64,000 nucleotides of DNA, taken from sequence record NC_019505.1. One strand, written 5' to 3'. Positions 21,461 through 38,215 of the stretch are shown piece by piece (position 1 is the stretch's first letter; each line of letters opens with the position of its first letter). The position numbers and the translations under genes are program-made. This DNA is from Escherichia phage wV7. The notes beneath the pieces were generated by a model. That model searched no databases and was not told the origin of the DNA. It saw nothing but the letters and a program-made list of their open reading frames with translations.

Positions 21461-21982
21461 TTATCCTTTCATTGAAGGCGTAACGGTTGTTAAATACTTA
21501 ATCATAGCTTCAGCTTCTGATTTTGATAGTGAAATTTCTTCACCGTTTTGGCGAATAGAAACAAAATCTGGATGACGATCACCACCAGCTTTTAAAACAC
21601 ACATATAAGTATCAGCTTCGCCTTCAATATTTGAAATGATTGAAGCAGTTCCACACGAATGTGGTTTTTGATAAATCAATACAGCTTTTCTTCCACCATT
21701 TGACTGTTCATAGGCTTTTAATACATCAAACAAATCAGTTCTTTTATCAATAGCTAAAATGTTATTTTCATCTTCAATGTTAAATCCTTCGGATACTTCA
21801 TAAAGCGTTACCCATAAATCGCCAATATCAATAACAGCATTTACTTTTCCACGGCTTTCAAGAGTATGACAAATTTTCTTGATTTCGTCATAACTCATTT
21901 TAATAATATCATCTCCTTGACTAAGAAAGATGTCATTTTTAAATTCAACACGAATTAAACCGCTTCCACTTGAAATAAACAT
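21461..21982 (-). CDS. Hypothetical protein, tandem paralog A
   Basis: 173 aa; shares GFNIE core and C-terminal KYLTTVTPSM with the next ORF. Confidence 0.55.
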   Translation of the reverse strand: MFISSGSGLIRVEFKNDIFLSQGDDIIKMSYDEIKKICHTLESRGKVNAVIDIGDLWVTLYEVSEGFNIEDENNILAIDKRTDLFDVLKAYEQSNGGRKAVLIYQKPHSCGTASIISNIEGEADTYMCVLKAGGDRHPDFVSIRQNGEEISLSKSEAEAMIKYLTTVTPSMKG

Positions 21983-21988
21983 ATTTCC

Positions 21989-22543
21989 TCACTTTGAAAT
22001 CATAGTTGGAATAACAGAATCAAGATAAGTCTTTAGTGCAATAGTTTCGTCTTTGGTAAATGTGACAATATGTGCTCGAAAATCATCAATTTGACGAATA
22101 GTTAAGACATCTCCATCTTCATAACATTTTGATACGTTTAAAACAGTTTCATCATTCTGATTGCAAGCGTTAGTAATAATAGCATTGCAATTTTTAAACC
22201 ATTTTAAACTATGTTTTCTTTCATTAGAATAATAAAAATATTTAATCTTATCTATAAAACTATCCCAATGGATAACTGATAAGCATATTGACTCGCTTTC
22301 AATATTAAATCCTGGGCATGAAGAATAAAAATGAATTTTATGCTCATCATTAATGCTTATAATTTTATCAGTATAAGGATTTTCAATTTTGGTTAAATGA
22401 ATGATTTCACTAGGCGTAAAATACAGCATATCGTCTTCTTGTGTCAAACGATACATATTATTTACTTTTTCTATAGCCAATTCACCAAAAAGTGAACTAA
22501 CTTCTAATACTAATCGTTTCATATTAATCCTTTTTAATGGCAT
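21989..22543 (-). CDS. Hypothetical protein, tandem paralog B
   Basis: 184 aa; PGFNIESE core and C-terminal KTYLDSVIPTM align with paralog A. Confidence 0.55.
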   Translation of the reverse strand: MPLKRINMKRLVLEVSSLFGELAIEKVNNMYRLTQEDDMLYFTPSEIIHLTKIENPYTDKIISINDEHKIHFYSSCPGFNIESESICLSVIHWDSFIDKIKYFYYSNERKHSLKWFKNCNAIITNACNQNDETVLNVSKCYEDGDVLTIRQIDDFRAHIVTFTKDETIALKTYLDSVIPTMISK

Positions 22544-22802
22544 GAATTTGTTCTAAAATTTTAGAGTATTCCTTTATATCAGATTTACGTACAATCGATA
22601 CACTATAAGGCATACTATCGGTGTCTTTTATAAAGCGTTCCAAATGACACTCTAACAAAATTTCTGGATTATAAATCGTGTACATCAAATTACCTGTTGC
22701 TCCACGATATTGACAGATTTCTACTGATTGAGCATCATTCCACAATTTTGTTAAGACTAAATCACCTACTTCTAATTTAGGAAAGCCCATGTTATTCACC
22801 AA
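22524..22802 (-). CDS. Hypothetical protein
   Basis: 92-aa ORF. Confidence 0.45.
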   Translation of the reverse strand: MVNNMGFPKLEVGDLVLTKLWNDAQSVEICQYRGATGNLMYTIYNPEILLECHLERFIKDTDSMPYSVSIVRKSDIKEYSKILEQIHAIKKD

Positions 22803-22977
22803 TTAAAGTTTCAATATAAGAATCAAGATTTACTTTAGCTTCTTCCATAAGAGTTTTGTATTTAATCTTGATAGCATGTCCGGAGAAAGCTGATTCATCA
22901 ATAACTGTTGCTGTATGAACAGCTTTGCTATATGTTTCAATTAATTCTCTTAATTTAAAAGCCTGCTCACTCGTCAT
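22792..22977 (-). CDS. Small acidic protein (small-protein family)
   Basis: 61 aa; N-terminus MTSEQAFKLRELIE. Confidence 0.45.
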   Translation of the reverse strand: MTSEQAFKLRELIETYSKAVHTATVIDESAFSGHAIKIKYKTLMEEAKVNLDSYIETLIGE

Positions 22978-23129
22978 TACATACTCCTCTGAATCATATC
23001 AATAATGTTGTTCACCAGATTATAAGTAAACATTGGGTAATTATATTGAATCACCACATACACAACAAACAAAACTTTCATTCTCTTCTCCTGGCAGTTG
23101 ACAAGATTACTATACCATAACCTTGCCAA

Positions 23130-23303
23130 CTTGTAAACCATTAAATGACGTTTTCAATAAAATTCTGAAGCTTTGTGTGAGCATCAACCATGATTTTCAT
23201 TTCTTCTTTTGCGAAAGCTGTACCTCTTTCCCGAGCAGAATACTCATAGTCAGAAACTGCATTAGCGTATTCTTCAATTAGCTTCATTAAAAACATCTGC
23301 TTT
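23130..23303 (-). CDS. Possible small ORF (about 57 aa), below ORF-track threshold
   Basis: Hand translation MKTEKQMFLMKLIEEYANAV... fills gap. Confidence 0.3.
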
Positions 23304-23498
23304 TCAGTTTTCATTATTCCACCTAATCATTTCAAGATATTGAACTAACTTAGCTTTGGATTTATCCAAATCTCTTTTAGCTGCTTCTATACCGTCGTAT
23401 GAATATCCTTCACAATGCTCAACTGCTAATTGGTATGAATCTATTTCAATATCACGTGCTAATTTAATGATTTTTTCAAACTGTTCACGTGTTAGCAT
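23304..23498 (-). CDS. Small acidic protein (small-protein family)
   Basis: 64 aa; N-terminus MLTREQFEKIIKLARD. Confidence 0.45.
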   Translation of the reverse strand: MLTREQFEKIIKLARDIEIDSYQLAVEHCEGYSYDGIEAAKRDLDKSKAKLVQYLEMIRWNNEN

Positions 23499-23500
23499 AC

Positions 23501-23692
23501 TTAAACTCTCGTATTATGATCGATAATTTCATCAAGAAACATATCTAACGCTTCTACAGCATTATTAAATTTAGCTTCAAATTCTTCAATACCTGATAAA
23601 CCTGATAAGGCAAAGTTAATGCGTTCCTCATCTGCTTTACGAATTAAAGCTACCAATTCCTTAATTTTATCCGCTTGTTCGATACTAATCAT
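23501..23692 (-). CDS. Small acidic protein (small-protein family)
   Basis: Start at internal Met ([19 protein letters not shown]). Confidence 0.45.
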   Translation of the reverse strand: MISIEQADKIKELVALIRKADEERINFALSGLSGIEEFEAKFNNAVEALDMFLDEIIDHNTRV

Positions 23693-23880
23693 TATTCCAC
23701 CACATATGAAAGAGAGAATATTGCACACGCCATGTGAGTTGCAACTTCATCACACATATTATAACGTTTCTTAAGAAGTTCTACAAGTTCTTCACTAGTA
23801 ACTTCATCCATGTCGACGAAAAAATCACCATTAATGATGACGTAGATATTTCCTTCTTGATTGAGTGCTTCAATTTTCAT
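23692..23880 (-). CDS. Hypothetical small protein
   Basis: ORF 23692-23925; start at internal Met (MKIEALNQ...) downstream of an early promoter. Confidence 0.45.
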
Positions 23881-23908
23881 GATGTTCTCCTCTTTATCCG
23901 ATAGTTGT

Positions 23909-23938
23909 ATAGTACCACAGCTCAAACGGAAAGTAAAC
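23909..23938 (-). promoter_or_regulatory. T4-type early promoter
   Basis: GTTTAC -35 and TGgTACTAT extended -10. Confidence 0.6.
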
Positions 23939-23948
23939 CGGTAAAATG

Positions 23949-23970
23949 AAAAAAGTCTCCCGAAGGAGAC
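23949..23970 (-). terminator. Rho-independent terminator (UUCG hairpin plus U-run)
   Basis: Minus RNA GUCUCC-UUCG-GGAGAC followed by UUUUUU. Confidence 0.6.
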
Positions 23971-23975
23971 TAATG

Positions 23976-24362
23976 TTATTCGAGGGAAAGAAGATACTTA
24001 CTCTGGTAAAACATTCCAGTAATATCATCTATCGTGCTTTGGATGGCTGGAGGCATTTCTTTATAAATGCTGTTAGATTGGTCTAGTATGCGATCAATCA
24101 TTTTAATTGTGTCGGTAGGAAGTTTACTGGCATCTGGAATTGAAGGTGTGTATTTTCTACCAGAATACCCCAAATATTGCTCACCAAATTTATCAATCAA
24201 ATCTGGCAACTCGGAGAAAATAAAATCGTATGCTTTGTGTCTAGCATAATTTTTAGTTTCAAAATGCGCAGAATGAAAATAAGCTTGTGCAGCCATTAAT
24301 AAACCTAAGTATTCATCTGCCTTTGAAGGTTTTCCACTTTGTGAAAAGTCGCTGAATTTCAT
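23976..24362 (-). CDS. Hypothetical protein (rI.-1 position)
   Basis: 128-aa ORF directly downstream of rI, followed by UUCG terminator. Confidence 0.55.
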
Positions 24363-24652
24363 TCAGTCTCCAATTTAATGTTCATAATTCTAGCGTATGA
24401 TTGTGCCATCTCCGCGCCTCGCTCTATACATTCAAAATCAGAAGAGCACGGGTCATTTTTATAGGTCGTTCTCATAAAACTATAGAATTGTTCAGACGAT
24501 TCTACGCTTTTATTTTCAAAAAGCATATAAACGTGCCTAATACCAGATTCCATAAATTTATCAAAATGAGGATCGACATTCGCTTCAATTGGTGGAGATA
24601 AAGCAAACGCTAATCCTAGCATGGCAAATAGTGCCGTTGCTTTTAAGGCCAT
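24359..24652 (-). CDS. rI: Lysis-inhibition regulator rI
   Basis: 97 aa with signal-anchor N-terminus MALKATALFAMLGLAFALSP; near-identical to recalled T4 RI. Confidence 0.88.
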   Translation of the reverse strand: MALKATALFAMLGLAFALSPPIEANVDPHFDKFMESGIRHVYMLFENKSVESSEQFYSFMRTTYKNDPCSSDFECIERGAEMAQSYARIMNIKLETE

Positions 24653-24664
24653 AAAGGCCTCCTA

Positions 24665-24877
24665 TCATTTTTGTCCTGTATTTACTTTATGCCGATGCAC
24701 GGCCTTAACTTTATCAAGGTATTTTTCAAAATTTCGCAATCTAGTATAGTCTGCCGGAGATTGGTTGAGTGATACTTCTCGACGCAAAGCTGAAATGATA
24801 TTTCCAACTTCCCTACGAATTTCATCTAATTGAAGCACAGTAAGATTGCGAAGTTGCTTTTCAGTTAATTGTAGCAT
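24665..24877 (-). CDS. Hypothetical protein (rI.1 position)
   Basis: 70-aa ORF between tk and rI. Confidence 0.5.
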
Positions 24878-24919
24878 ATATACCCCTTTAGTTAGATAAA
24901 CCTATTTATAACTTTTGCA

Positions 24920-25501
24920 CTAACCGAGCTTTTTAGTTAATTCATTCCAATGTTTTCTACACAAAGAAACATAAATTTCATCACCAATACAGATTTGATT
25001 ACCTTCTTTAACTGGTGTTCCATCTTCCATTAATCGAGCTGTCATAATCGCTTTTTTGCCGCAATGACAAACTGCCTTTAGTTCAATAAGTTTATCTGCA
25101 ATCGCTAAAAGTTCTTTAGAACCTTCAAACAATTTTCCAGCGAAATCAGTCCTTAATCCATAAGCCATAACAGGAACATTATATGTATCAACAATTCGGC
25201 TCAATTGATGCACCTGTTCAGTTTTTAAAAACTGGGCTTCATCTACAAATACGCAATGAATATCTTTTTGTGCTTCAGCCCATTTATAGAACTCGAAAAT
25301 ATCCATATCATCTGTAATAATATTTGCTTCCTGCCTAATTCCAATGCGAGAAACGACTTCACAGACAGAATCGCGAGTATCAATAGCAGGCTTAAGAACT
25401 AATACACTCATTCCACGTTCTTTATAATTGTGCGCAGCAGTCAAAAGAGAAGCAGATTTTCCAGCATTCATTGCTGCATAAGTAAAAATTAAACTCGCCA
25501 T
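24920..25501 (-). CDS. tk: Thymidine kinase
   Basis: 193 aa; P-loop AAMNAGKS and C-terminal Cys cluster; matches recalled T4 tk length. Confidence 0.9.
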   Translation of the reverse strand: MASLIFTYAAMNAGKSASLLTAAHNYKERGMSVLVLKPAIDTRDSVCEVVSRIGIRQEANIITDDMDIFEFYKWAEAQKDIHCVFVDEAQFLKTEQVHQLSRIVDTYNVPVMAYGLRTDFAGKLFEGSKELLAIADKLIELKAVCHCGKKAIMTARLMEDGTPVKEGNQICIGDEIYVSLCRKHWNELTKKLG

Positions 25502-25502
25502 C

Positions 25503-25691
25503 TTAGTCCTTAGTTAAATTTTCTAAATATGTTTCTAAATCATTTTCAGCTTTATCGATAGATTTTACTAATTCGTAATATGTTTCGGCATCTCCATATT
25601 CAGAAGATATTTCAAAAGACAAATCCTTTTCTAAACTAATAATTTCACCAACTAAAAATAATATTTCGTTCTTTTGTTCGCGAGTAATCAT
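25503..25691 (-). CDS. Small acidic protein (small-protein family)
   Basis: 62 aa; N-terminus MITREQKNEILFLVGEI. Confidence 0.45.
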   Translation of the reverse strand: MITREQKNEILFLVGEIISLEKDLSFEISSEYGDAETYYELVKSIDKAENDLETYLENLTKD

Positions 25692-25873
25692 AAGGAATTT
25701 ATATAATCAATGAGTTCTTGTTCTTTATTATCGAATTCTTTAGAAAGTTCTTCGTATTCGTCAGTATTAAAAGGACCGCATTCATTACAAACTTTTTCCA
25801 ATTCACTATTTTTATCCATAACTTCGTGGATAAGAGAAAAGAGTTTGTCTTTTTGTTCTTTGCTTAGGCTCAT
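25688..25873 (-). CDS. Small acidic protein (small-protein family)
   Basis: 61 aa; N-terminus MSLSKEQKDKLFSLIHEV. Confidence 0.45.
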   Translation of the reverse strand: MSLSKEQKDKLFSLIHEVMDKNSELEKVCNECGPFNTDEYEELSKEFDNKEQELIDYINSL

Positions 25874-26043
25874 ATATTAATTTCCAGAAGTTTTAAAATA
25901 ATTCGCTTTTGCTTAAATATTTCCATAGTTAAATGATCAGTATCTTTTTGACCAATTCCAATGGCAAAACCTTTATTAGCAGCGAGTTCAATTAAATTAT
26001 CAAGTTCACGTGACACTTCATATTGTAACTCAGAACTATTCAT
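25872..26043 (-). CDS. Possible small ORF (about 57 aa), below ORF-track threshold
   Basis: Hand translation MNSSELQYEVSRELDNLIEL...; stop overlaps next start (ATGA). Confidence 0.3.
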
Positions 26044-26252
26044 TTCGGTTTACCTTCTTTAACGAAATCTGGATAAGGATAAAATCCCGAATAAAATCCT
26101 TCACCTTTATGATTGATGCATCCTTTATTAGAACAATAGCACCAATAATCGAAATCACAAGCCATTTCATCGTTGCATAAAGCAAAAACAACTGGCCATT
26201 TACACTTTTCACAATGGGCATTTTTAAGAATACTAGTTTGGCTCATAACCAT
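26040..26252 (-). CDS. Cysteine-rich small protein (probable zinc binding)
   Basis: 70 aa with about ten Cys/His (CEKCKW, CNDEMAC, CYCSNKGC); preferred over the overlapping 26036-26221 ORF. Confidence 0.45.
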   Translation of the reverse strand: MVMSQTSILKNAHCEKCKWPVVFALCNDEMACDFDYWCYCSNKGCINHKGEGFYSGFYPYPDFVKEGKPK

Positions 26253-26919: not shown

Positions 26920-27263
26920 CTAGTACTCAATCCTCGATTATAAGAATCTACCAAACGGTCAACCATTGAATGACAAGCGGCTTTATCTTTTTCCTCCGCA
27001 ACTGAACATTCTAAGGTATTCCACTTTTTAGCATATCGTTTTAACAATGTATCATTTTTGTATCTGCTTGATTTATCTCTTTCTCCGTCTTTATATGCAT
27101 ATATTAATTTCTGCGCAAATTCAGCTTGACATGCTTTATTTTTCCCACAATAATCCGCGGCAGTACGGTTTACATACTCTCTAATTTCAGTATATGATGT
27201 ATCTGCTAACGCAGAAGCAGAAAATGAAATTAATCCTATACATAAAACCAAAATTTTAGTCAT
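26916..27263 (-). CDS. vs: Secreted protein at the vs position (valyl-tRNA synthetase modifier-like)
   Basis: 115 aa with signal peptide MTKILVLCIGLISFSASALA; positional and size match to T4 vs. Confidence 0.55.
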   Translation of the reverse strand: MTKILVLCIGLISFSASALADTSYTEIREYVNRTAADYCGKNKACQAEFAQKLIYAYKDGERDKSSRYKNDTLLKRYAKKWNTLECSVAEEKDKAACHSMVDRLVDSYNRGLSTR

Positions 27264-27801
27264 TTACTATTTCCAAAAGTTTATTATTTTTAAGGTAATT
27301 AGCCTTTTCTAGGACTTCAGAAGCATATTTAGAACCTGCTTTAACATTCCATCCCGAATTATAAGAGGATATCGCCTTTCTTATATCGCCCTTATGTATA
27401 TTTAACCAATAAGAAAGTTCAATGTACGCCCAGGAAGCTGAATTGGACCGTTTATTCAACATTCTTTTTATTTCAGCATCGGTCATATTATAACCAAGTT
27501 CCTTAACTCTTGCTCGCATAGTAGGCAAATAATTTTGGAACATTCCGTAGGCGTGATGCTTTGGTTTAGATTTTAAATTAACTCCGCCAGAGCTTTCTTG
27601 CCATAAAATAGCAGCCATTATATGACCTAATCCACTCTTGTGGATGTTTTTGTGTGTTTTATATTTTCCATCCTTAGAAAATTGTTCCCCGAATTGATAC
27701 GCGTAACGCATGTTATCGAGTTGGACATTACTGAAAGTATGCTCGGAGCTATGTGCCATCATTGAAATGGCCAATAGACCAGCGAGTAGTGCTTTTCTCA
27801 T
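27256..27801 (-). CDS. Secreted lytic-transglycosylase-like protein (vs.1 position)
   Basis: 181 aa; signal peptide and ILWQESSGG motif resembling SLT-domain catalytic region. Confidence 0.55.
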   Translation of the reverse strand: MRKALLAGLLAISMMAHSSEHTFSNVQLDNMRYAYQFGEQFSKDGKYKTHKNIHKSGLGHIMAAILWQESSGGVNLKSKPKHHAYGMFQNYLPTMRARVKELGYNMTDAEIKRMLNKRSNSASWAYIELSYWLNIHKGDIRKAISSYNSGWNVKAGSKYASEVLEKANYLKNNKLLEIVND

Positions 27802-27808
27802 GCTTACC

Positions 27809-28270
27809 TCATTGAGTTTTAATTACTGCTTTAGAAGCCTTTCCTGGTAAACGACGACTGTTGATAATTGCCATTCTACATTGAAGTGACGGGTCTTTGA
27901 ACTTCGCATTAGGTTTACAAACCGTAAATCCAAGCCAAAGATTTCCATCTGTAATTTCCAAACGCCCAGGACGATATTCAACCCCATCAATAAAATCCTC
28001 GTCAATGTCAGGACGCGGAGGCATACTCAGGAATTCATTAACTTCTAAAACATGGTCTTTTATTTTGTGGAATAATTCAAAAACATATGTCTCATCAATC
28101 TCCCGTTGAATTGCACGATCAAGAAGATGTTGAGAATATTTTAGATGAAACGATGAGACTCCTGCTGCTTTTGATGCCTCACGAATCTCATTGTTAATTT
28201 GACGAAACTCCGACTCAAAATGACGACGAAGCTTATTTCGACGGATAAAAACTTCTGTATTGATAGTCAT
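27809..28270 (-). CDS. regB: Site-specific endoribonuclease RegB
   Basis: 153 aa; matches recalled T4 RegB size and N-terminus; own early promoter with perfect extended -10. Confidence 0.85.
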   Translation of the reverse strand: MTINTEVFIRRNKLRRHFESEFRQINNEIREASKAAGVSSFHLKYSQHLLDRAIQREIDETYVFELFHKIKDHVLEVNEFLSMPPRPDIDEDFIDGVEYRPGRLEITDGNLWLGFTVCKPNAKFKDPSLQCRMAIINSRRLPGKASKAVIKTQ

Positions 28271-28329: not shown

Positions 28330-28650
28330 TTATTCTTTAAATCTAATCAATTTATTCATAGACTTTGAAACTTCTGCACGAACCTCGTGTAGATTTTTAA
28401 GCTGTTCAAGACGTTGCTCATAGTAAGCAATTTCATCTTCTTCGAGGCAGTCCTGTGAATCTTCTTTAAGATAACGTGCATAGTCCTGGAAAGCTTTACG
28501 GACTACTTCCTGGAAATCATCAAGACTTTGAATTTTCTTAGGAGCAACAGATACACGACGAGGGGCAGTATAATACTCATAACCAAACCCTGCGCTTAAT
28601 TGAGCCATTAGTATTTTTCCTCTGGTTGGAACACTGCGCGACAAGCCCAC
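28330..28650 (-). CDS. Hypothetical protein (vs.3 position)
   Basis: 106-aa ORF. Confidence 0.5.
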
Positions 28651-28910
28651 ATACTAGCTTCTTTGAGTTTCGTTTTAGCAATAGTTAACTGATCGAGGCT
28701 TTCAGCATAATTCTTCGCGAGTTCATCATCTTCACAGCTATCGAATGCTTCCCAGAATTCATCGTATAAAGCATCAAAGATAAGTCCTAAACGAACTTCA
28801 GCGTCTTTGATAGCATTCACTTTACCGATTTTCTCTTCAGTATGCGGCTTATAACCTTTAATGTCTTCAATCATATTTGACTTCCTCACCAGTACATAAA
28901 TCATATTCAA
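28608..28910 (-). CDS. Small protein at vs.4 position (possible Acb2-like cyclic-nucleotide sponge); start uncertain
   Basis: About 90-100 aa acidic protein; assignment is positional only (T4 vs.4 is Acb2). Confidence 0.45.
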
Positions 28911-29457: not shown

Positions 29458-29787
29458 TCAATTAGAAAATAAATTTATCCAAGATTGTTCTTTAATTAAA
29501 AATGGCTCAGAATCATATGCCATTAAACTTTGGGTGATTAGTCCTTTAAAAGGTCCATCAATAAATTCCATGGTAAAATATGGAATTTTATTCATTAACT
29601 GCGCGTTAGGAGCAGTGCACAAAACTCTGCATCCTTTGAATACGCCTTTTTGTAATTTGTATTGCTTGGGATAAAATTCGCTCAAAATGTTATTATTTGC
29701 CAAAATTTCAAAATGATTCACCAATTTATTTTTAATAGTTTTTGGCGAAAAATAAAGATATTCGAAAAGCTGTGTGTCTGTCATCAT
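29458..29787 (-). CDS. Hypothetical protein
   Basis: 109-aa ORF. Confidence 0.5.
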
Positions 29788-30374
29788 TGCATTCCAATCA
29801 CAAAAAATTGAGGACGAACTGTTTCACCTGTTTCAGCATTATAGCTTCGACAACAGTGTTGTACCGTTTTAATATGGATATTGTAAATCTTATCCATATC
29901 AGGAGCTTTAATAGGTTCGTCAATTATGTACAAGATACGAGAAAGCGATAACCCACGGAATTTATGACCTTCATTACCGATAAAACTACGGACAGAATCA
30001 GTAAATAAACGGAATCGAATATCATCATTAGAATAACGCGAAAATTCCTTTTTAATGTTATTTGCAGAAATTTTAGCGTAAGCTGAAGTATTAGAAAGAA
30101 CAATAACTGTTCCGCCATCATACAGCCAATTAGCAGCAAAGTTAGTCACAGCAATTGATTTACCGGATTGACGTCCACCATCTATACGAAGTGTGCAGTA
30201 CTGTTTGAGCACATCTTCCATTGGTGGAAGATAATCATTCTTACAAATTTCTTCTACTCTAGCATCAGAATGGTGTGTAAAAGCATTCATCAGGGATAGA
30301 TAAGGACCAGTTAAAAATGTTCTCATTTTATTCTCTCTAAGTTTGGGCCATTCCGTGGCGCATGAATTGTCCAT
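29784..30374 (-). CDS. Small P-loop NTPase of unknown function
   Basis: 196 aa; Walker A GGRQSGKS and Walker B-like ILYIIDE. Confidence 0.55.
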   Translation of the reverse strand: MDNSCATEWPKLRENKMRTFLTGPYLSLMNAFTHHSDARVEEICKNDYLPPMEDVLKQYCTLRIDGGRQSGKSIAVTNFAANWLYDGGTVIVLSNTSAYAKISANNIKKEFSRYSNDDIRFRLFTDSVRSFIGNEGHKFRGLSLSRILYIIDEPIKAPDMDKIYNIHIKTVQHCCRSYNAETGETVRPQFFVIGMQ

Positions 30375-37194: not shown

Positions 37195-37270
37195 TGGTCG
37201 AGGCAGTAGGGATCGAACCTACGACCTAGGACTTAGAAGGTCCTTGCTCTTCCTTCTGAGCTATGCCCCG
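37195..37270 (-). tRNA. tRNA-Arg (anticodon UCU), CCA encoded
   Basis: Hand-folded cloverleaf: acceptor CGGGGCA/TGCCTCG, anticodon loop CTTCTAA, T-loop TTCGATC. Confidence 0.8.
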
Positions 37271-37274
37271 TAAT

Positions 37275-37350
37275 TGGGGTGACCGATGGGAGTCGAACCC
37301 ATGACTACGAGAATCACAATCTCGAGTTCTACCAACTGAACTACGGTCAC
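37275..37350 (-). tRNA. tRNA-His (anticodon GUG), CCA encoded
   Basis: Acceptor GTGACCG/CGGTCAC, anticodon stem CGAGA/TCTCG with loop TTGTGAT, discriminator C; no encoded G-1. Confidence 0.7.
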
Positions 37351-37464
37351 ATTAATACCTACTCCAACAATCAAGATGTCTTCACACGAAATTAAGAGAA
37401 GAGTGATCAGTTCAACCCCTATAATCGCGTCAAGTAGATATTAATGTGACAGTTGTCACAAATT

Positions 37465-37539
37465 TGGCGGACGTGATAGGATTCGAACCTATAACCAATC
37501 GCTTAACAGGCGATCGCTCTGCCATTGAGCTACACATCC
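37465..37539 (-). tRNA. tRNA-Asn (anticodon GUU), CCA encoded
   Basis: Acceptor GGATGTG/CACGTCC (one G-U), anticodon loop CTGTTAA, T-loop TTCGAAT. Confidence 0.75.
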
Positions 37540-37543
37540 AAAT

Positions 37544-37630
37544 TGGTGGGGAGTGGTGGAGTCGAACCACCCGAGTCGCAATGACAATGAATTTACAGTC
37601 CACACCGCTACCTCTACGGGATAACTCCCC
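37544..37630 (-). tRNA. tRNA-Tyr (anticodon GUA), long variable arm, CCA encoded
   Basis: Acceptor GGGGAGT/ACTCCCC, anticodon loop CTGTAAA, variable-arm hairpin GTC-ATTGC-GAC, T-loop TTCGACT. Confidence 0.7.
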
Positions 37631-37642
37631 TAATTCATAATT

Positions 37643-37717
37643 TGGTGGCCCTGGGTGGAATTGAACCACCATCTGGCGATTATGAGTCGCTTGCTTGAAC
37701 CTTCCAGCTACAGGGCC
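37643..37717 (-). tRNA. tRNA with CAU anticodon (Met, or Ile by T4 analogy), CCA encoded
   Basis: Acceptor GGCCCTG/CAGGGCC, anticodon loop CTCATAA, T-loop TTCAATT. Confidence 0.75.
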
Positions 37718-37718
37718 T

Positions 37719-37794
37719 TGGTGCTGATTGACGGAATCGAACCGCCGACCTTCTCATTACAAGTGAGTTGCTCTACCTACTGAGCTAAATCAGC
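37719..37794 (-). tRNA. tRNA-Thr (anticodon UGU), CCA encoded
   Basis: Acceptor GCTGATT/AATCAGC, anticodon loop CTTGTAA, T-loop TTCGATT. Confidence 0.8.
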
Positions 37795-37799
37795 AAAAC

Positions 37800-37889
37800 T
37801 GGCGGAGGTGATAGGATTCGAACCTATGAATCGCCGGAGCGACTGCCGGTTTTCAAGACCGGTGCATTCAACCACTCTGCCACACCTCC
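37800..37889 (-). tRNA. tRNA-Ser (anticodon UGA), long variable arm, CCA encoded
   Basis: Acceptor GGAGGTG/CACCTCC, anticodon loop CTTGAAA, long variable arm, T-loop TTCGAAT. Confidence 0.8.
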
Positions 37890-37891
37890 AG

Positions 37892-37965
37892 TCTCCATAC
37901 AAGGATTTGAACCTTGGACCTCCTGATCCCAAATCAGGCGCTCTACCAAACTGAGCTACACGGAG
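37892..37965 (-). tRNA. tRNA-Pro (anticodon UGG), CCA not encoded
   Basis: Acceptor CTCCGTG/TATGGAG (two G-U), anticodon loop TTTGGGA, T-loop TTCAAAT; followed by CT then next tRNA. Confidence 0.75.
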
Positions 37966-37975
37966 TAAATTAAAT

Positions 37976-38049
<74 letters not shown>

Positions 38050-38054
38050 AAATT

Positions 38055-38141
38055 TGGTGCGAGAAGTGGGACTCGAACCCACAAGGAAATCATTCCGCAG
38101 CATTTTAAGTGCTGTGCCTTTACCAATTTGACCATTCTCGC
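38055..38141 (-). tRNA. tRNA-Leu (anticodon UAA), long variable arm, CCA encoded
   Basis: Acceptor GCGAGAA/TTCTCGC, anticodon stem CAGCA/TGCTG with loop CTTAAAA, T-loop TTCGAGT. Confidence 0.8.
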
Positions 38142-38142
38142 G

Positions 38143-38215
38143 CTGGGAATAAAGGACTCGAACCTTTGCATCTAGCAGTCAAAGTGCTATGCCTTACCAA
38201 CTTGGCTAATTCCCA
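38143..38215 (-). tRNA. tRNA-Gln (anticodon UUG), CCA not encoded
   Basis: Acceptor TGGGAAT/ATTCCCA, anticodon stem TAGCA/TGCTA with loop CTTTGAC, T-loop TTCGAGT; abuts tRNA-Leu. Confidence 0.8.

What the first reader, a model, noticed from the sequence alone, without database searches (positions are those of the whole stretch)
22792..26043. Dispersed family of small acidic proteins of about 60 aa with a shared N-terminal motif
At least five ORFs (22792-22977, 23304-23498, 23501-23692, 25503-25691, 25688-25873) start with a similar M-x-(T/S)-x-EQ-x-x-(K/E)-(I/L) motif and are acidic and helical; two further sub-threshold ORFs may belong. They flank rI and tk, and small paralogous proteins in such regions are often host-takeover or anti-defence factors.
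Basis: seen in the sequence. Interest (0 to 1): 0.5.

Follow-up and report, generated by a model that had tools for sequence, protein, structure and literature searches.

The report
Six paralogous T4 early hairpin proteins
This T4-like phage carries six diverged copies of a tiny, mostly acidic two-helix protein made early in infection; the family is already catalogued (Pfam DUF7438; T4 genes tk.1, tk.2, mobD.2a, mobD.3, mobD.4), and it is real, expressed and dispensable in the laboratory, but its function is still unknown.

Summary
The window is E. coli O157 typing phage 7, a Tequatrovirus. The five listed ORFs are the orthologues of T4-type genes RB14ncORF101c, mobD.3, mobD.4, tk.1 and tk.2. 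All five, plus a sixth (mobD.2a, 23141-23314), match Pfam DUF7438 at E 1e-14 to 4e-19. Each also beats 1000 of 1000 of its own shuffles against a profile built from the other five. The ORF at 25870-26043, mobD.5 and rI.1 are not members. A scan of nearly the whole genome finds only these six, all within 3.1 kb.

AlphaFold2 predicts an antiparallel two-helix hairpin (pLDDT 91-94). The two termini are conserved and the tip is variable. The genes are under purifying selection (dN/dS 0.04-0.5), sit behind T4 early promoters and overlap their neighbours' stop codons.

Published T4 data show early RNA and detected protein for MobD.3, MobD.4, Tk.1 and Tk.2. Single knock-downs gave no fitness effect, and a deletion covering mobD.2a and mobD.3 is viable.

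No function is known. Structure hits are generic hairpins, and there is no relation to the neighbouring Acb2 (vs.4). My best inference is that these are small, target-specific protein binders for host takeover or counter-defence. This is a known family and of modest interest.

The parts
25688..25873 (-). tk.2 orthologue, 61 aa, DUF7438 member (T4 'ORF 59.9')
   Evidence: Pfam PF24219 E 3.9e-19, 69.2 bits. phrog_653. 93% identical to T4, dN/dS 0.14. AF2 hairpin with helices 5-32 and 37-60, pLDDT 90.6. ATGA overlaps with the upstream and downstream genes.
25503..25691 (-). tk.1 orthologue, 62 aa, DUF7438 member (T4 'ORF 59.7')
   Evidence: Pfam E 6.8e-15. phrog_653. 100% identical to T4. Its start overlaps the tk.2 stop (ATGA). 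Absent from PP01 and JS98.
23501..23692 (-). mobD.4 orthologue, 63 aa, DUF7438 member; the true start is the ATG at 23692, not the upstream GTG at 23728
   Evidence: Pfam E 7.6e-15. phrog_653. GGTGGA Shine-Dalgarno and a TAATG overlap with the mobD.5 stop. The family alignment begins at this Met. Its tip region is hypervariable among 43 variants.
23304..23498 (-). mobD.3 orthologue, 64 aa, DUF7438 member
   Evidence: Pfam E 2.7e-17. phrog_653. 98% identical to T4, dN/dS 0.05; 64% identical to JS98, dN/dS 0.10. Found in 587 GenBank phage records.
23141..23314 (-). mobD.2a orthologue, 57 aa, DUF7438 member; the sixth copy, not listed by coordinates in the finding
   Evidence: Pfam E 3.5e-16. phrog_2758 with a cross-hit to phrog_4859. 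Overlaps mobD.3 by 11 nt; GGTGGA Shine-Dalgarno. dN/dS 0.04-0.06.
22792..22977 (-). RB14ncORF101c orthologue, 61 aa, the most divergent DUF7438 member
   Evidence: Pfam E 1.3e-14. phrog_4859 with cross-hits to phrog_653 and phrog_2758. AF2 hairpin with helices 3-28 and 34-59, pLDDT 93.7. Absent from T4 and PP01 together with the next gene, 22524-22790. Found in 191 phage records.
23909..23971 (-). Stem-loop plus T4 early promoter (a PeSL-type element) that starts the mobD.5 - mobD.4 - mobD.3 - mobD.2a unit
   Evidence: Hairpin AGTCTCC-TTCG-GGAGACT followed by a T-run at 23971-23954. Then TTTACT-N17-TACTAT at 23937-23909, read from the sequence. This fits the T4/PST PeSL promoter consensus TTTACW-N17-TAYWAT (PMC4122927). 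A 'mobD.5 promoter' was mapped in T4 by primer extension (PMC1702504).
23109..23137 (-). Early-promoter-like site upstream of mobD.2 and RB14ncORF101c
   Evidence: TTTACA-17-TATAGT preceded by TG, 10 of 12 matches. This is a consensus match only.

Best explanation
What it is (probability about 0.97). These are six anciently diverged paralogues of the catalogued phage family DUF7438 (PHROGs 653, 4859 and 2758). They are the T4-type genes tk.2, tk.1, mobD.4, mobD.3, mobD.2a and RB14ncORF101c, in a Tequatrovirus. They form two clusters within 3.1 kb, on either side of rI and tk. They are real protein-coding early genes.

How they are expressed (sequence features shown here; timing taken from T4 literature). 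They are transcribed from sigma-70-type T4 early promoters. One is a stem-loop/promoter cassette upstream of mobD.5. Most are translated by coupling to the preceding gene through ATGA or TAATG overlaps.

What the product is (predicted with high confidence). Each is a roughly 7 kDa, usually acidic, antiparallel two-helix hairpin. The conserved N-terminal motif ([TS]-x-E-Q, then K-[IL]-x-x-L-[IV]) and the conserved C-terminal motif (L-x-x-[YF]-[LI]-x-x-[LI]) come together at the closed 'base' of the hairpin. The helix ends next to the loop, the 'tip', differ between paralogues. Within some sub-families the tip carries its own conserved motif, for example CEGYSY in mobD.3 and ERGT in the mobD.2a-like group.

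What it most likely does (inferred, probability about 0.35). Each paralogue is a small stoichiometric binder of a different host or phage macromolecule. Specificity would be set by the tip, and the base would serve as the fold-closing or oligomerising surface. On this reading they are accessory host-takeover or counter-defence modulators, needed only on particular hosts. That would explain why single knock-downs in laboratory E. coli show no fitness effect.
For: Identity: the window is 100% identical to KP869105.1. Gene names come from RB14. Pfam DUF7438 matches all six at 55-69 bits against a cut-off of 25. PHROG hits cross between the sub-families. The leave-one-out shuffle test is passed by every member.

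Copy number: there are exactly six members in the window and in nearly the whole 168-kb genome. The next best ORF scores at most 14 bits and has no Pfam hit.

Real genes: dN/dS is 0.04-0.5 against T4, RB14, PP01 and JS98. Conserved residues use different synonymous codons, so the constraint is on the protein. T4 MobD.3 and MobD.4 are classed early RNA/early protein, and Tk.1 and Tk.2 early RNA/middle protein (PMC9697503 supplements).

Expression signals.

Fold: AF2 pLDDT 90.6 (tk.2) and 93.7 (ncORF101c), both two-helix hairpins.

Base and tip: family-wide column conservation is high at both termini and low in the middle, which also carries indels. Within mobD.4 and tk.2 the variation concentrates in the tip: entropy 0.71 against 0.18, and 1.33 against 0.73.

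Old sub-families: each window paralogue clusters with its own orthologues, some less than 50% identical. JS98 (Dhakavirus) keeps tk.2 and mobD.3 in the same positions.

Accessory character: T4 knock-downs are 'Not fit' (meaning checked). The nrdC.11-mobD.3 deletion is viable. Copy number is 6 here, 5 in T4, 4 in PP01, 2 in JS98 and 1 in the podovirus SU10. GenBank phage records carrying each paralogue: tk.2 747, mobD.3 587, tk.1 193, ncORF101c 191.

Acidity: median net charge -7 and median pI 4.46 across 41 representatives, against a median pI of 7.9 for 35 other small early proteins of the window.
Against: No partner, phenotype or activity is known for any member, so the functional step is inference from size, timing, dispensability and neighbourhood.

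The 'variable tip' pattern within sub-families holds only for mobD.4 and tk.2, not for the other four.

Acidity is not universal: 2 of 41 representatives are basic.

Oligomerisation could not be modelled with the tools available.

CRISPRi-ART also scored 13 known essential T4 genes as 'Not fit', so that negative result is soft.
Confidence: 0.55

Rival explanations
1. The proteins are acidic nucleic-acid mimics or decoys, in the manner of Ocr, Arn or ArdA. On this reading they use their negative surface to occupy DNA- or RNA-binding sites of host nucleases or restriction systems.
For: The family has a strong net negative charge (median -7 over about 60 residues; tk.1 -10, tk.2 -9). It is expressed early and is dispensable on laboratory hosts.
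Against: Several members are near neutral or basic: mobD.2a -2, P0141 +1, P0145 +4. Apart from the invariant N-terminal Glu, the most conserved positions are hydrophobic rather than acidic. There is no similarity to known mimic families in Pfam, PDB or PADLOC. A 60-aa hairpin is short for a DNA mimic unless it oligomerises.
Confidence: 0.12
2. The proteins are small accessory or scaffold subunits of phage nucleotide-metabolism enzymes such as thymidine kinase and other kinases. The argument rests on gene adjacency and translational coupling.
For: tk.1 ends 1 nt before tk, and tk.2 is coupled to tk.1. In the metagenomic contig L005 a member's stop overlaps the start of an AAA_33 kinase-like gene. 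In SU10 a member lies in the same unit as a dNMP kinase. L004 has a deoxyribosyltransferase 2 kb upstream.
Against: Four of the six copies are not next to any metabolic gene. Other distant members sit among small unknown ORFs only. Phage early regions are rich in nucleotide-metabolism genes anyway, so adjacency carries little weight. PP01 and JS98 keep tk without tk.1.
Confidence: 0.08
3. The proteins are distant relatives of the Acb2/Tad1 helical-hairpin sponges that sequester cyclic-nucleotide immune signals. Vs.4/Acb2 is encoded 3 kb away.
For: Vs.4 at 28608-28874 matches Pfam 'Acb2_Tad1_hairpin', a 58-position model of similar length, and PDB 7uq2. Both families are small helical early proteins in the same region.
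Against: Profile-profile comparison of DUF7438 (41 sequences) with an Acb2 alignment (24 sequences) gives probability 0.5%, and 0.2% against the single sequence. No Acb2 Pfam hit appears for any of the six even at E <= 1. 7uq2 is not among the top 50 Foldseek PDB matches.
Confidence: 0.02
4. The resemblance is compositional (acidic, helix-favouring, AT-rich codons), or the ORFs are not genuine genes.
For: Pairwise identities are only 13-28%, and several pairwise phmmer E-values exceed 0.1.
Against: An independent Pfam model matches all six far above its threshold. No shuffle out of 1000 reaches the real score for any member. The six score at least 52 bits while every other ORF in the window scores below 10 bits. 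Selection is purifying. T4 orthologues are detected as proteins.
Confidence: 0.01

Closest known systems
Pfam DUF7438 (PF24219) / PHROG 653 (with 4859 and 2758): T4 Tk.1, Tk.2, MobD.2a, MobD.3, MobD.4
   Same: These are the same proteins. The window copies are 93-100% identical to the T4 orthologues where T4 has one, and all six pass the Pfam threshold over the full model. T4 ORFs 59.7 and 59.9 are annotated in the early T4 sequence record X04567.1.
   Different: There is nothing different in kind. This phage has one copy more than T4 (RB14ncORF101c) and a full-length mobD.2a, whereas the T4 reference carries a truncated 38-aa form (P0106). PHROGs splits the family into three groups, while Pfam keeps it as one.
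Rop/Rom of plasmid ColE1 (helical-hairpin homodimer forming a four-helix bundle)
   Different: There is no sequence relationship (Foldseek E above 3, 12-14% identity). The match is one of thousands of generic hairpins. Rop binds RNA kissing complexes, whereas these proteins are strongly acidic. Dimerisation was not tested here.
Characterised small early accessory proteins of T-even phages (Vs.4/Acb2, Dmd, Arn, AsiA, IpI/IpII)
   Same: They share early expression, small size, dispensability on laboratory hosts and location in the hyperplastic early regions. Vs.4/Acb2 lies in the same window.
   Different: There is no homology to any of them. Acb2 was tested by profile-profile comparison, and the rest only through the absence of Pfam or PDB hits. 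No target is known for DUF7438.

Membership tests
Pfam DUF7438 (PF24219) | Whole-protein score above the curated gathering threshold (25 bits), with the match spanning the 57-position model | tested here: met
   Six ORFs score 54.7-69.2 bits over model positions 1-56/57. ORF 25870-26043, mobD.5 and rI.1 have no hit even at E <= 1.
Pfam DUF7438 (PF24219) | Single-domain protein of about 57-67 aa that begins with the M-[IL]-[TS]-x-E-Q motif and ends with L-x-x-[YF]-[LI]-x-x-[LI] | tested here: met
   Lengths are 57-64 aa. Motif conservation was measured on 41 representatives drawn from a search of 1.84 billion proteins.
Pfam DUF7438 (PF24219) | Shared fold among divergent members | tested here: met
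   AF2 gives the same two-helix hairpin for tk.2 (pLDDT 90.6) and for the most divergent copy, ncORF101c (pLDDT 93.7).
T4 gp59-type helicase loader (the label carried by phrog_4859 and by some GenBank records for the ncORF101c orthologue) | Homology to the gp59 helicase-assembly protein, which from my own knowledge is roughly 217 aa with two domains | tested here: not met
   The protein is 61 aa. Its only significant Pfam hit is DUF7438, and no helicase-loader family appears at E <= 1. The label occurs only as a PHROG or record name. I treat it as an annotation artefact.
Acb2/Tad1 hairpin domain (PF24729) | Sequence or profile similarity to the Acb2/Tad1 hairpin | tested here: not met
   hhalign probability is 0.5% between profiles and 0.2% against Vs.4 alone. 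No Pfam hit.
Rop/Rom-like four-helix-bundle dimers | Hairpin monomer | tested here: met
Rop/Rom-like four-helix-bundle dimers | Homodimerisation into a four-helix bundle, and RNA binding | not testable with these tools
   Only monomer prediction was available, and no biochemical data were found.
Phage anti-defence / host-takeover proteins (a functional class) | Demonstrated inhibition of a host defence system or host function | not testable with these tools
   No homology to PADLOC models or to solved structures. No functional report turned up in the searched literature. Only circumstantial features were found.

The most novel reading that the evidence does not exclude
The DUF7438 hairpins are a modular binder scaffold: a conserved base with an exchangeable tip. 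T-even phages would have expanded it into a set of target-specific inhibitors of host defence or host regulatory proteins. Tip replacement (the tk.2 allele classes, mobD.4 indels) and in-register recombination between neighbouring copies (tk.2/tk.1 chimeras) would generate new specificities. Their phenotypes would be hidden in K-12 and B strains because the targets are absent there or the copies overlap in function.
Probability: 0.25. Interest if true: 0.6.

Novelty: already known. Interest (0 to 1): 0.3.

Why it matters
T4 is the best-studied virulent phage, yet about half of its genes have no known function. This is one of the few cases where several of those genes turn out to be one expanded family with a confidently predicted, very simple fold.

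Recognising the six as paralogues has a practical consequence. Published single-gene knock-downs in T4 (all without fitness effect) cannot rule out a role if copies overlap in function or act only on particular hosts. The informative experiment is a multi-copy deletion tested on wild, defence-rich hosts, together with partner pull-downs.

If the tip-specific binder idea held, the family would be a compact natural scaffold for protein inhibitors. As it stands, the finding confirms database knowledge and adds anatomy, not function.

Tried and rejected
1. More members in the window or genome. HMMs built from 6, 17 and 41 sequences find only the six. One borderline ORF elsewhere in the genome (L016 37789-38016, 13.9 bits) has no Pfam hit.
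2. rI.1, RB32ORF110c (25870-26043) and mobD.5 as distant members. hhalign probability is below 1% for each.
3. Relation to Acb2/Tad1. Rejected by profile-profile comparison.
4. Solved-structure relatives by sequence. None at E below 0.4.
6. NCBIfam and PADLOC. No meaningful hits.
7. The 'helicase loader' label of phrog_4859. Unsupported.
8. A nucleotide-level explanation for the conserved N-terminus. Rejected, because synonymous codons differ at the conserved residues.
9. A conserved gene neighbour among distant members. None found; the contexts are arrays of small unknown ORFs in phage-like contigs of 44-64% GC.
10. The search for related loci with the broad alignment failed because no stretch was conserved enough. 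tblastn of two distant members against GenBank phages found nothing.
11. Literature. There is no paper on DUF7438 and no functional study of tk.1, tk.2 or mobD.2a-4 in the held library. The Miller et al. T4 genome review is not held.


Full report
**Source and gene identities.** The 3.8 kb around the finding is 100% identical to Escherichia coli O157 typing phage 7 (KP869105.1, genus Tequatrovirus). It is 95-99% identical to several hundred T4-like phages, including T6 and RB14. All genes here are on the minus strand.
- 22792-22977 = RB14ncORF101c
- 23304-23498 = mobD.3
- 23501-23692 = mobD.4
- 25503-25691 = tk.1
- 25688-25873 = tk.2

The T4 counterparts of tk.1 and tk.2 are annotated as ORF 59.7 and ORF 59.9 in the early T4 sequence record X04567.1.

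**Is the similarity real?** Yes. An independent curated model, Pfam DUF7438 (PF24219), matches each of the five over its whole length at 55-69 bits (cut-off 25; E 1e-14 to 4e-19). It also matches a sixth ORF, mobD.2a at 23141-23314. PHROGs places tk.1, tk.2, mobD.3 and mobD.4 in phrog_653, ncORF101c in phrog_4859 and mobD.2a in phrog_2758, with cross-hits between the groups.

Direct pairwise similarity is weak, at 13-28% identity and a best phmmer E of 1.8e-6. I therefore ran a composition control. For each member, an HMM built only from the other five scored the real sequence at 13-20 bits. The best of 1000 shuffles of that same sequence reached 7.9-14.8 bits, so no shuffle equalled the real score.

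**How many members are there?** HMMs built from 6, 17 and 41 family sequences find exactly these six in the window. They score at least 52 bits and every other ORF scores below 10 bits. I fetched the rest of the genome and scanned it, apart from about 0.7 kb that was not fetched. No further member appeared. The one borderline ORF (13.9 bits) has no Pfam hit.

They are 25870-26043 (RB32ORF110c), mobD.5 (23692-23880) and rI.1 (24665-24877).

**Are they genes?**
- Against T4, RB14, PP01 and JS98, dN/dS is 0.04-0.5 wherever substitutions allow an estimate.
- The conserved residues are encoded by different synonymous codons in the six copies, so the constraint is on the protein and not on the RNA or DNA.
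- Starts have Shine-Dalgarno sequences or overlap the preceding stop codon (ATGA, TAATG), as expected for translational coupling.
- A stem-loop followed by TTTACT-N17-TACTAT lies upstream of mobD.5. It fits the T4-type 'PeSL' terminator/early-promoter cassette (PMC4122927). A mobD.5 promoter has been mapped in T4 (PMC1702504).
- A second early-promoter-like site precedes mobD.2.
- In T4 time-course omics, mobD.3 and mobD.4 are classed early RNA/early protein, and tk.1 and tk.2 early RNA/middle protein (PMC9697503 supplements). The products are therefore detected.

**Structure.** AlphaFold2 predicts the same architecture for tk.2 (pLDDT 90.6; helices 5-32 and 37-60) and for the most divergent copy, ncORF101c (pLDDT 93.7; helices 3-28 and 34-59). 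It is an antiparallel two-helix hairpin.

Fold searches return only generic hairpins:
- Foldseek against PDB has no match at E <= 0.001. Rop has TM 0.83-0.90 but E above 3.
- BFVD's best matches are uncharacterised 53-59-aa proteins of other T4-like and enterobacterial phages.

**Family-wide anatomy.** An exhaustive HMMER search of 1.84 billion representative proteins found only 47 hits at E <= 0.001. About 40 are full-length proteins of 49-76 aa (one of 117 aa), and the rest are long coiled-coil-like proteins. So the family is small and phage-restricted.

Column conservation across 41 representatives is high at the N-terminus (M, I/L, T/S, E 0.91, Q 0.82, K, I/L, L 0.96, I/V). It is also high at the C-terminus (A, L 0.94, Y/F 0.98, L/I, L/I). 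The middle is variable and carries indels, with a Gly at the turn. In an antiparallel hairpin the two conserved ends pack together, giving a conserved 'base' and a variable 'tip'.

Within sub-families, variation is concentrated in the tip for mobD.4 and tk.2 but not for the other four. Several sub-families keep their own tip motif across distant orthologues (sequences).

The family is predominantly acidic, with median net charge -7 and median pI 4.46. Two of 41 members are basic.

**Evolution and distribution.** Each window paralogue clusters with its own orthologues, some below 50% identity. Dhakavirus JS98 keeps tk.2 and mobD.3 at the same positions. The duplications are therefore old.

Copy number varies: six here, five in T4, four in PP01 and two in JS98. 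One copy in the unrelated podovirus SU10 (Kuravirus) also passes the Pfam threshold. In GenBank phages, tk.2 is found in 747 records, mobD.3 in 587, tk.1 in 193 and ncORF101c in 191.

tk.2 exists in two allele classes, at least 90% identical in 167 records and below 60% in 580. In PP01 the divergent tk.2 (54%) sits next to a 99% identical tk, which indicates mosaic replacement. In-register tk.2/tk.1 chimeras exist in other phages (P0027 from phage UFV-AREG1, and P0091).

Distant members lie in unidirectional arrays of small unknown ORFs on phage-like metagenomic contigs of 44-64% GC, with no recurrent neighbour.

**Function.** Nothing is known.
- T4 knock-downs of mobD.2a, mobD.3, mobD.4, tk.1 and tk.2 are all 'Not fit', meaning no fitness effect (PMC11879866 supplement; meaning and caveat).
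- A T4 deletion from nrdC.11 to mobD.3 is viable (PMC9825161).
- There is no similarity to solved structures, NCBIfam or PADLOC models.
- The neighbouring vs.4 is the cyclic-nucleotide sponge Acb2, whose Pfam model is itself called a 'hairpin domain'. I built an Acb2 alignment and compared the profiles. The probability of relationship is 0.5%, so that attractive link is rejected.
- The 'helicase loader' label of phrog_4859 has no support.

**Most likely mechanism.** The steps shown are: early transcription signals, coupled translation, small acidic hairpin products, purifying selection, dispensability in laboratory hosts, and variable copy number. The step inferred is that each paralogue binds a different host or phage macromolecule through its tip, while the conserved base closes the fold and perhaps pairs hairpins into a four-helix bundle. 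These would be accessory host-takeover or counter-defence factors.

I give the identity about 0.97 and this mechanism about 0.35. The rivals are an acidic nucleic-acid mimic (0.12), an accessory subunit of nucleotide-metabolism enzymes suggested by adjacency to tk and other kinases (0.08), an Acb2-like sponge (0.02) and an artefact (0.01).

**Verdict.** The family is already catalogued (Pfam DUF7438, PHROG 653), and the genes are named and catalogued in T4. Novelty is 'already known' and interest is modest. The useful output is the experimental suggestion that published single-gene knock-downs cannot settle the question for a six-copy family.

Noticed in passing
window 28608-28874 (-): This is the vs.4 orthologue, the anti-CBASS cyclic-nucleotide sponge Acb2. 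It matches Pfam Acb2_Tad1_hairpin at E 8e-20 and PDB 7uq2 'Vs.4' at E 1.7e-53. KP869105.1 annotates it only as a hypothetical protein.
   Followed up: yes
window 21461-21982 and 21989-22522 (-): A second pair of adjacent paralogues. Both are mobD.1-like proteins with Pfam T4_y05I_N plus T4_y05I_C ('putative transcription factor') domains. They are 27% identical, BLASTP E 7e-11.
   Followed up: partly
window 22524-22977 (-): ncORF101c (DUF7438) and the next gene, 22524-22790 (Pfam 'Phage tudor domain', E 4e-39), behave as a two-gene cassette. It is present here and in RB14 but absent from T4 and PP01, where mobD.2 is followed directly by mobD.1.
   Followed up: partly
window 25688-25873, compared with L008 (PP01) and L009 (JS98): tk.2 has two very different allele classes among otherwise 95-99% identical phages: at least 90% identity in 167 records and below 60% in 580. 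In PP01 both tk.2 (54%) and tk.4 (56%) are divergent while tk is 99% identical, which indicates patchy mosaic replacement.
   Followed up: partly
proteins P0027 (Escherichia phage UFV-AREG1) and P0091: These are in-register chimeras with the N-terminal helix of Tk.2 and the C-terminal helix of Tk.1. They appear to be products of recombination between the adjacent paralogues. P0027 still passes the DUF7438 threshold.
   Followed up: partly
L010 3998-4159 (Kuravirus vB_EcoP_SU10, NC_027395.1): A 53-aa DUF7438 member (53.4 bits) occurs in a podovirus unrelated to T4. It sits at the end of an operon with an exonuclease, a dNMP kinase, an HNH endonuclease and a macro-domain protein. This suggests horizontal spread among coliphages.
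   Followed up: partly
L011 5001-5354 (metagenomic contig, protein P0131): A 117-aa protein with an N-terminal DUF7438 hairpin and an extra C-terminal region of about 58 aa that has no Pfam or PHROG match. It is seen on a single contig, so it could be a true fusion or an assembly or frameshift artefact.
   Followed up: no
window 27256-27801, 28330-28608, 29458-29787, 29784-30326: KP869105.1 labels these four genes 'endoribonuclease RegB' in addition to the real regB at 27809-28270. By position they correspond to vs.1, vs.3, vs.7 and vs.8, so the labels look like annotation spill-over.
   Followed up: no
window 25870-26246 (-): Two genes lie between tk.3 and tk.2 that T4 lacks: RB32ORF110c (57 aa, phrog_3452) and RB32ORF111c (68 aa, Pfam 'Phage zinc binding domain', E 3e-29).
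   Followed up: partly
window 37195-38215 (-): The record annotates 11 tRNA genes (Arg, His, Asn, Tyr, Met, Thr, Ser, Pro, Gly, Leu, Gln). From memory this is more than the 8 in T4. A 2026 paper links amplification of the T6 tRNA-Tyr locus to escape from the Septu defence (PMC13096335).
   Followed up: no
window about 11.8-13.1 kb (-): The small genes between pinA and nrdC correspond to the T-even 49.x region, where Gp49.2 of T6 was recently reported to inhibit the OLD defence (PMC13096335). I did not map which ORF here is the 49.2 orthologue.
   Followed up: no
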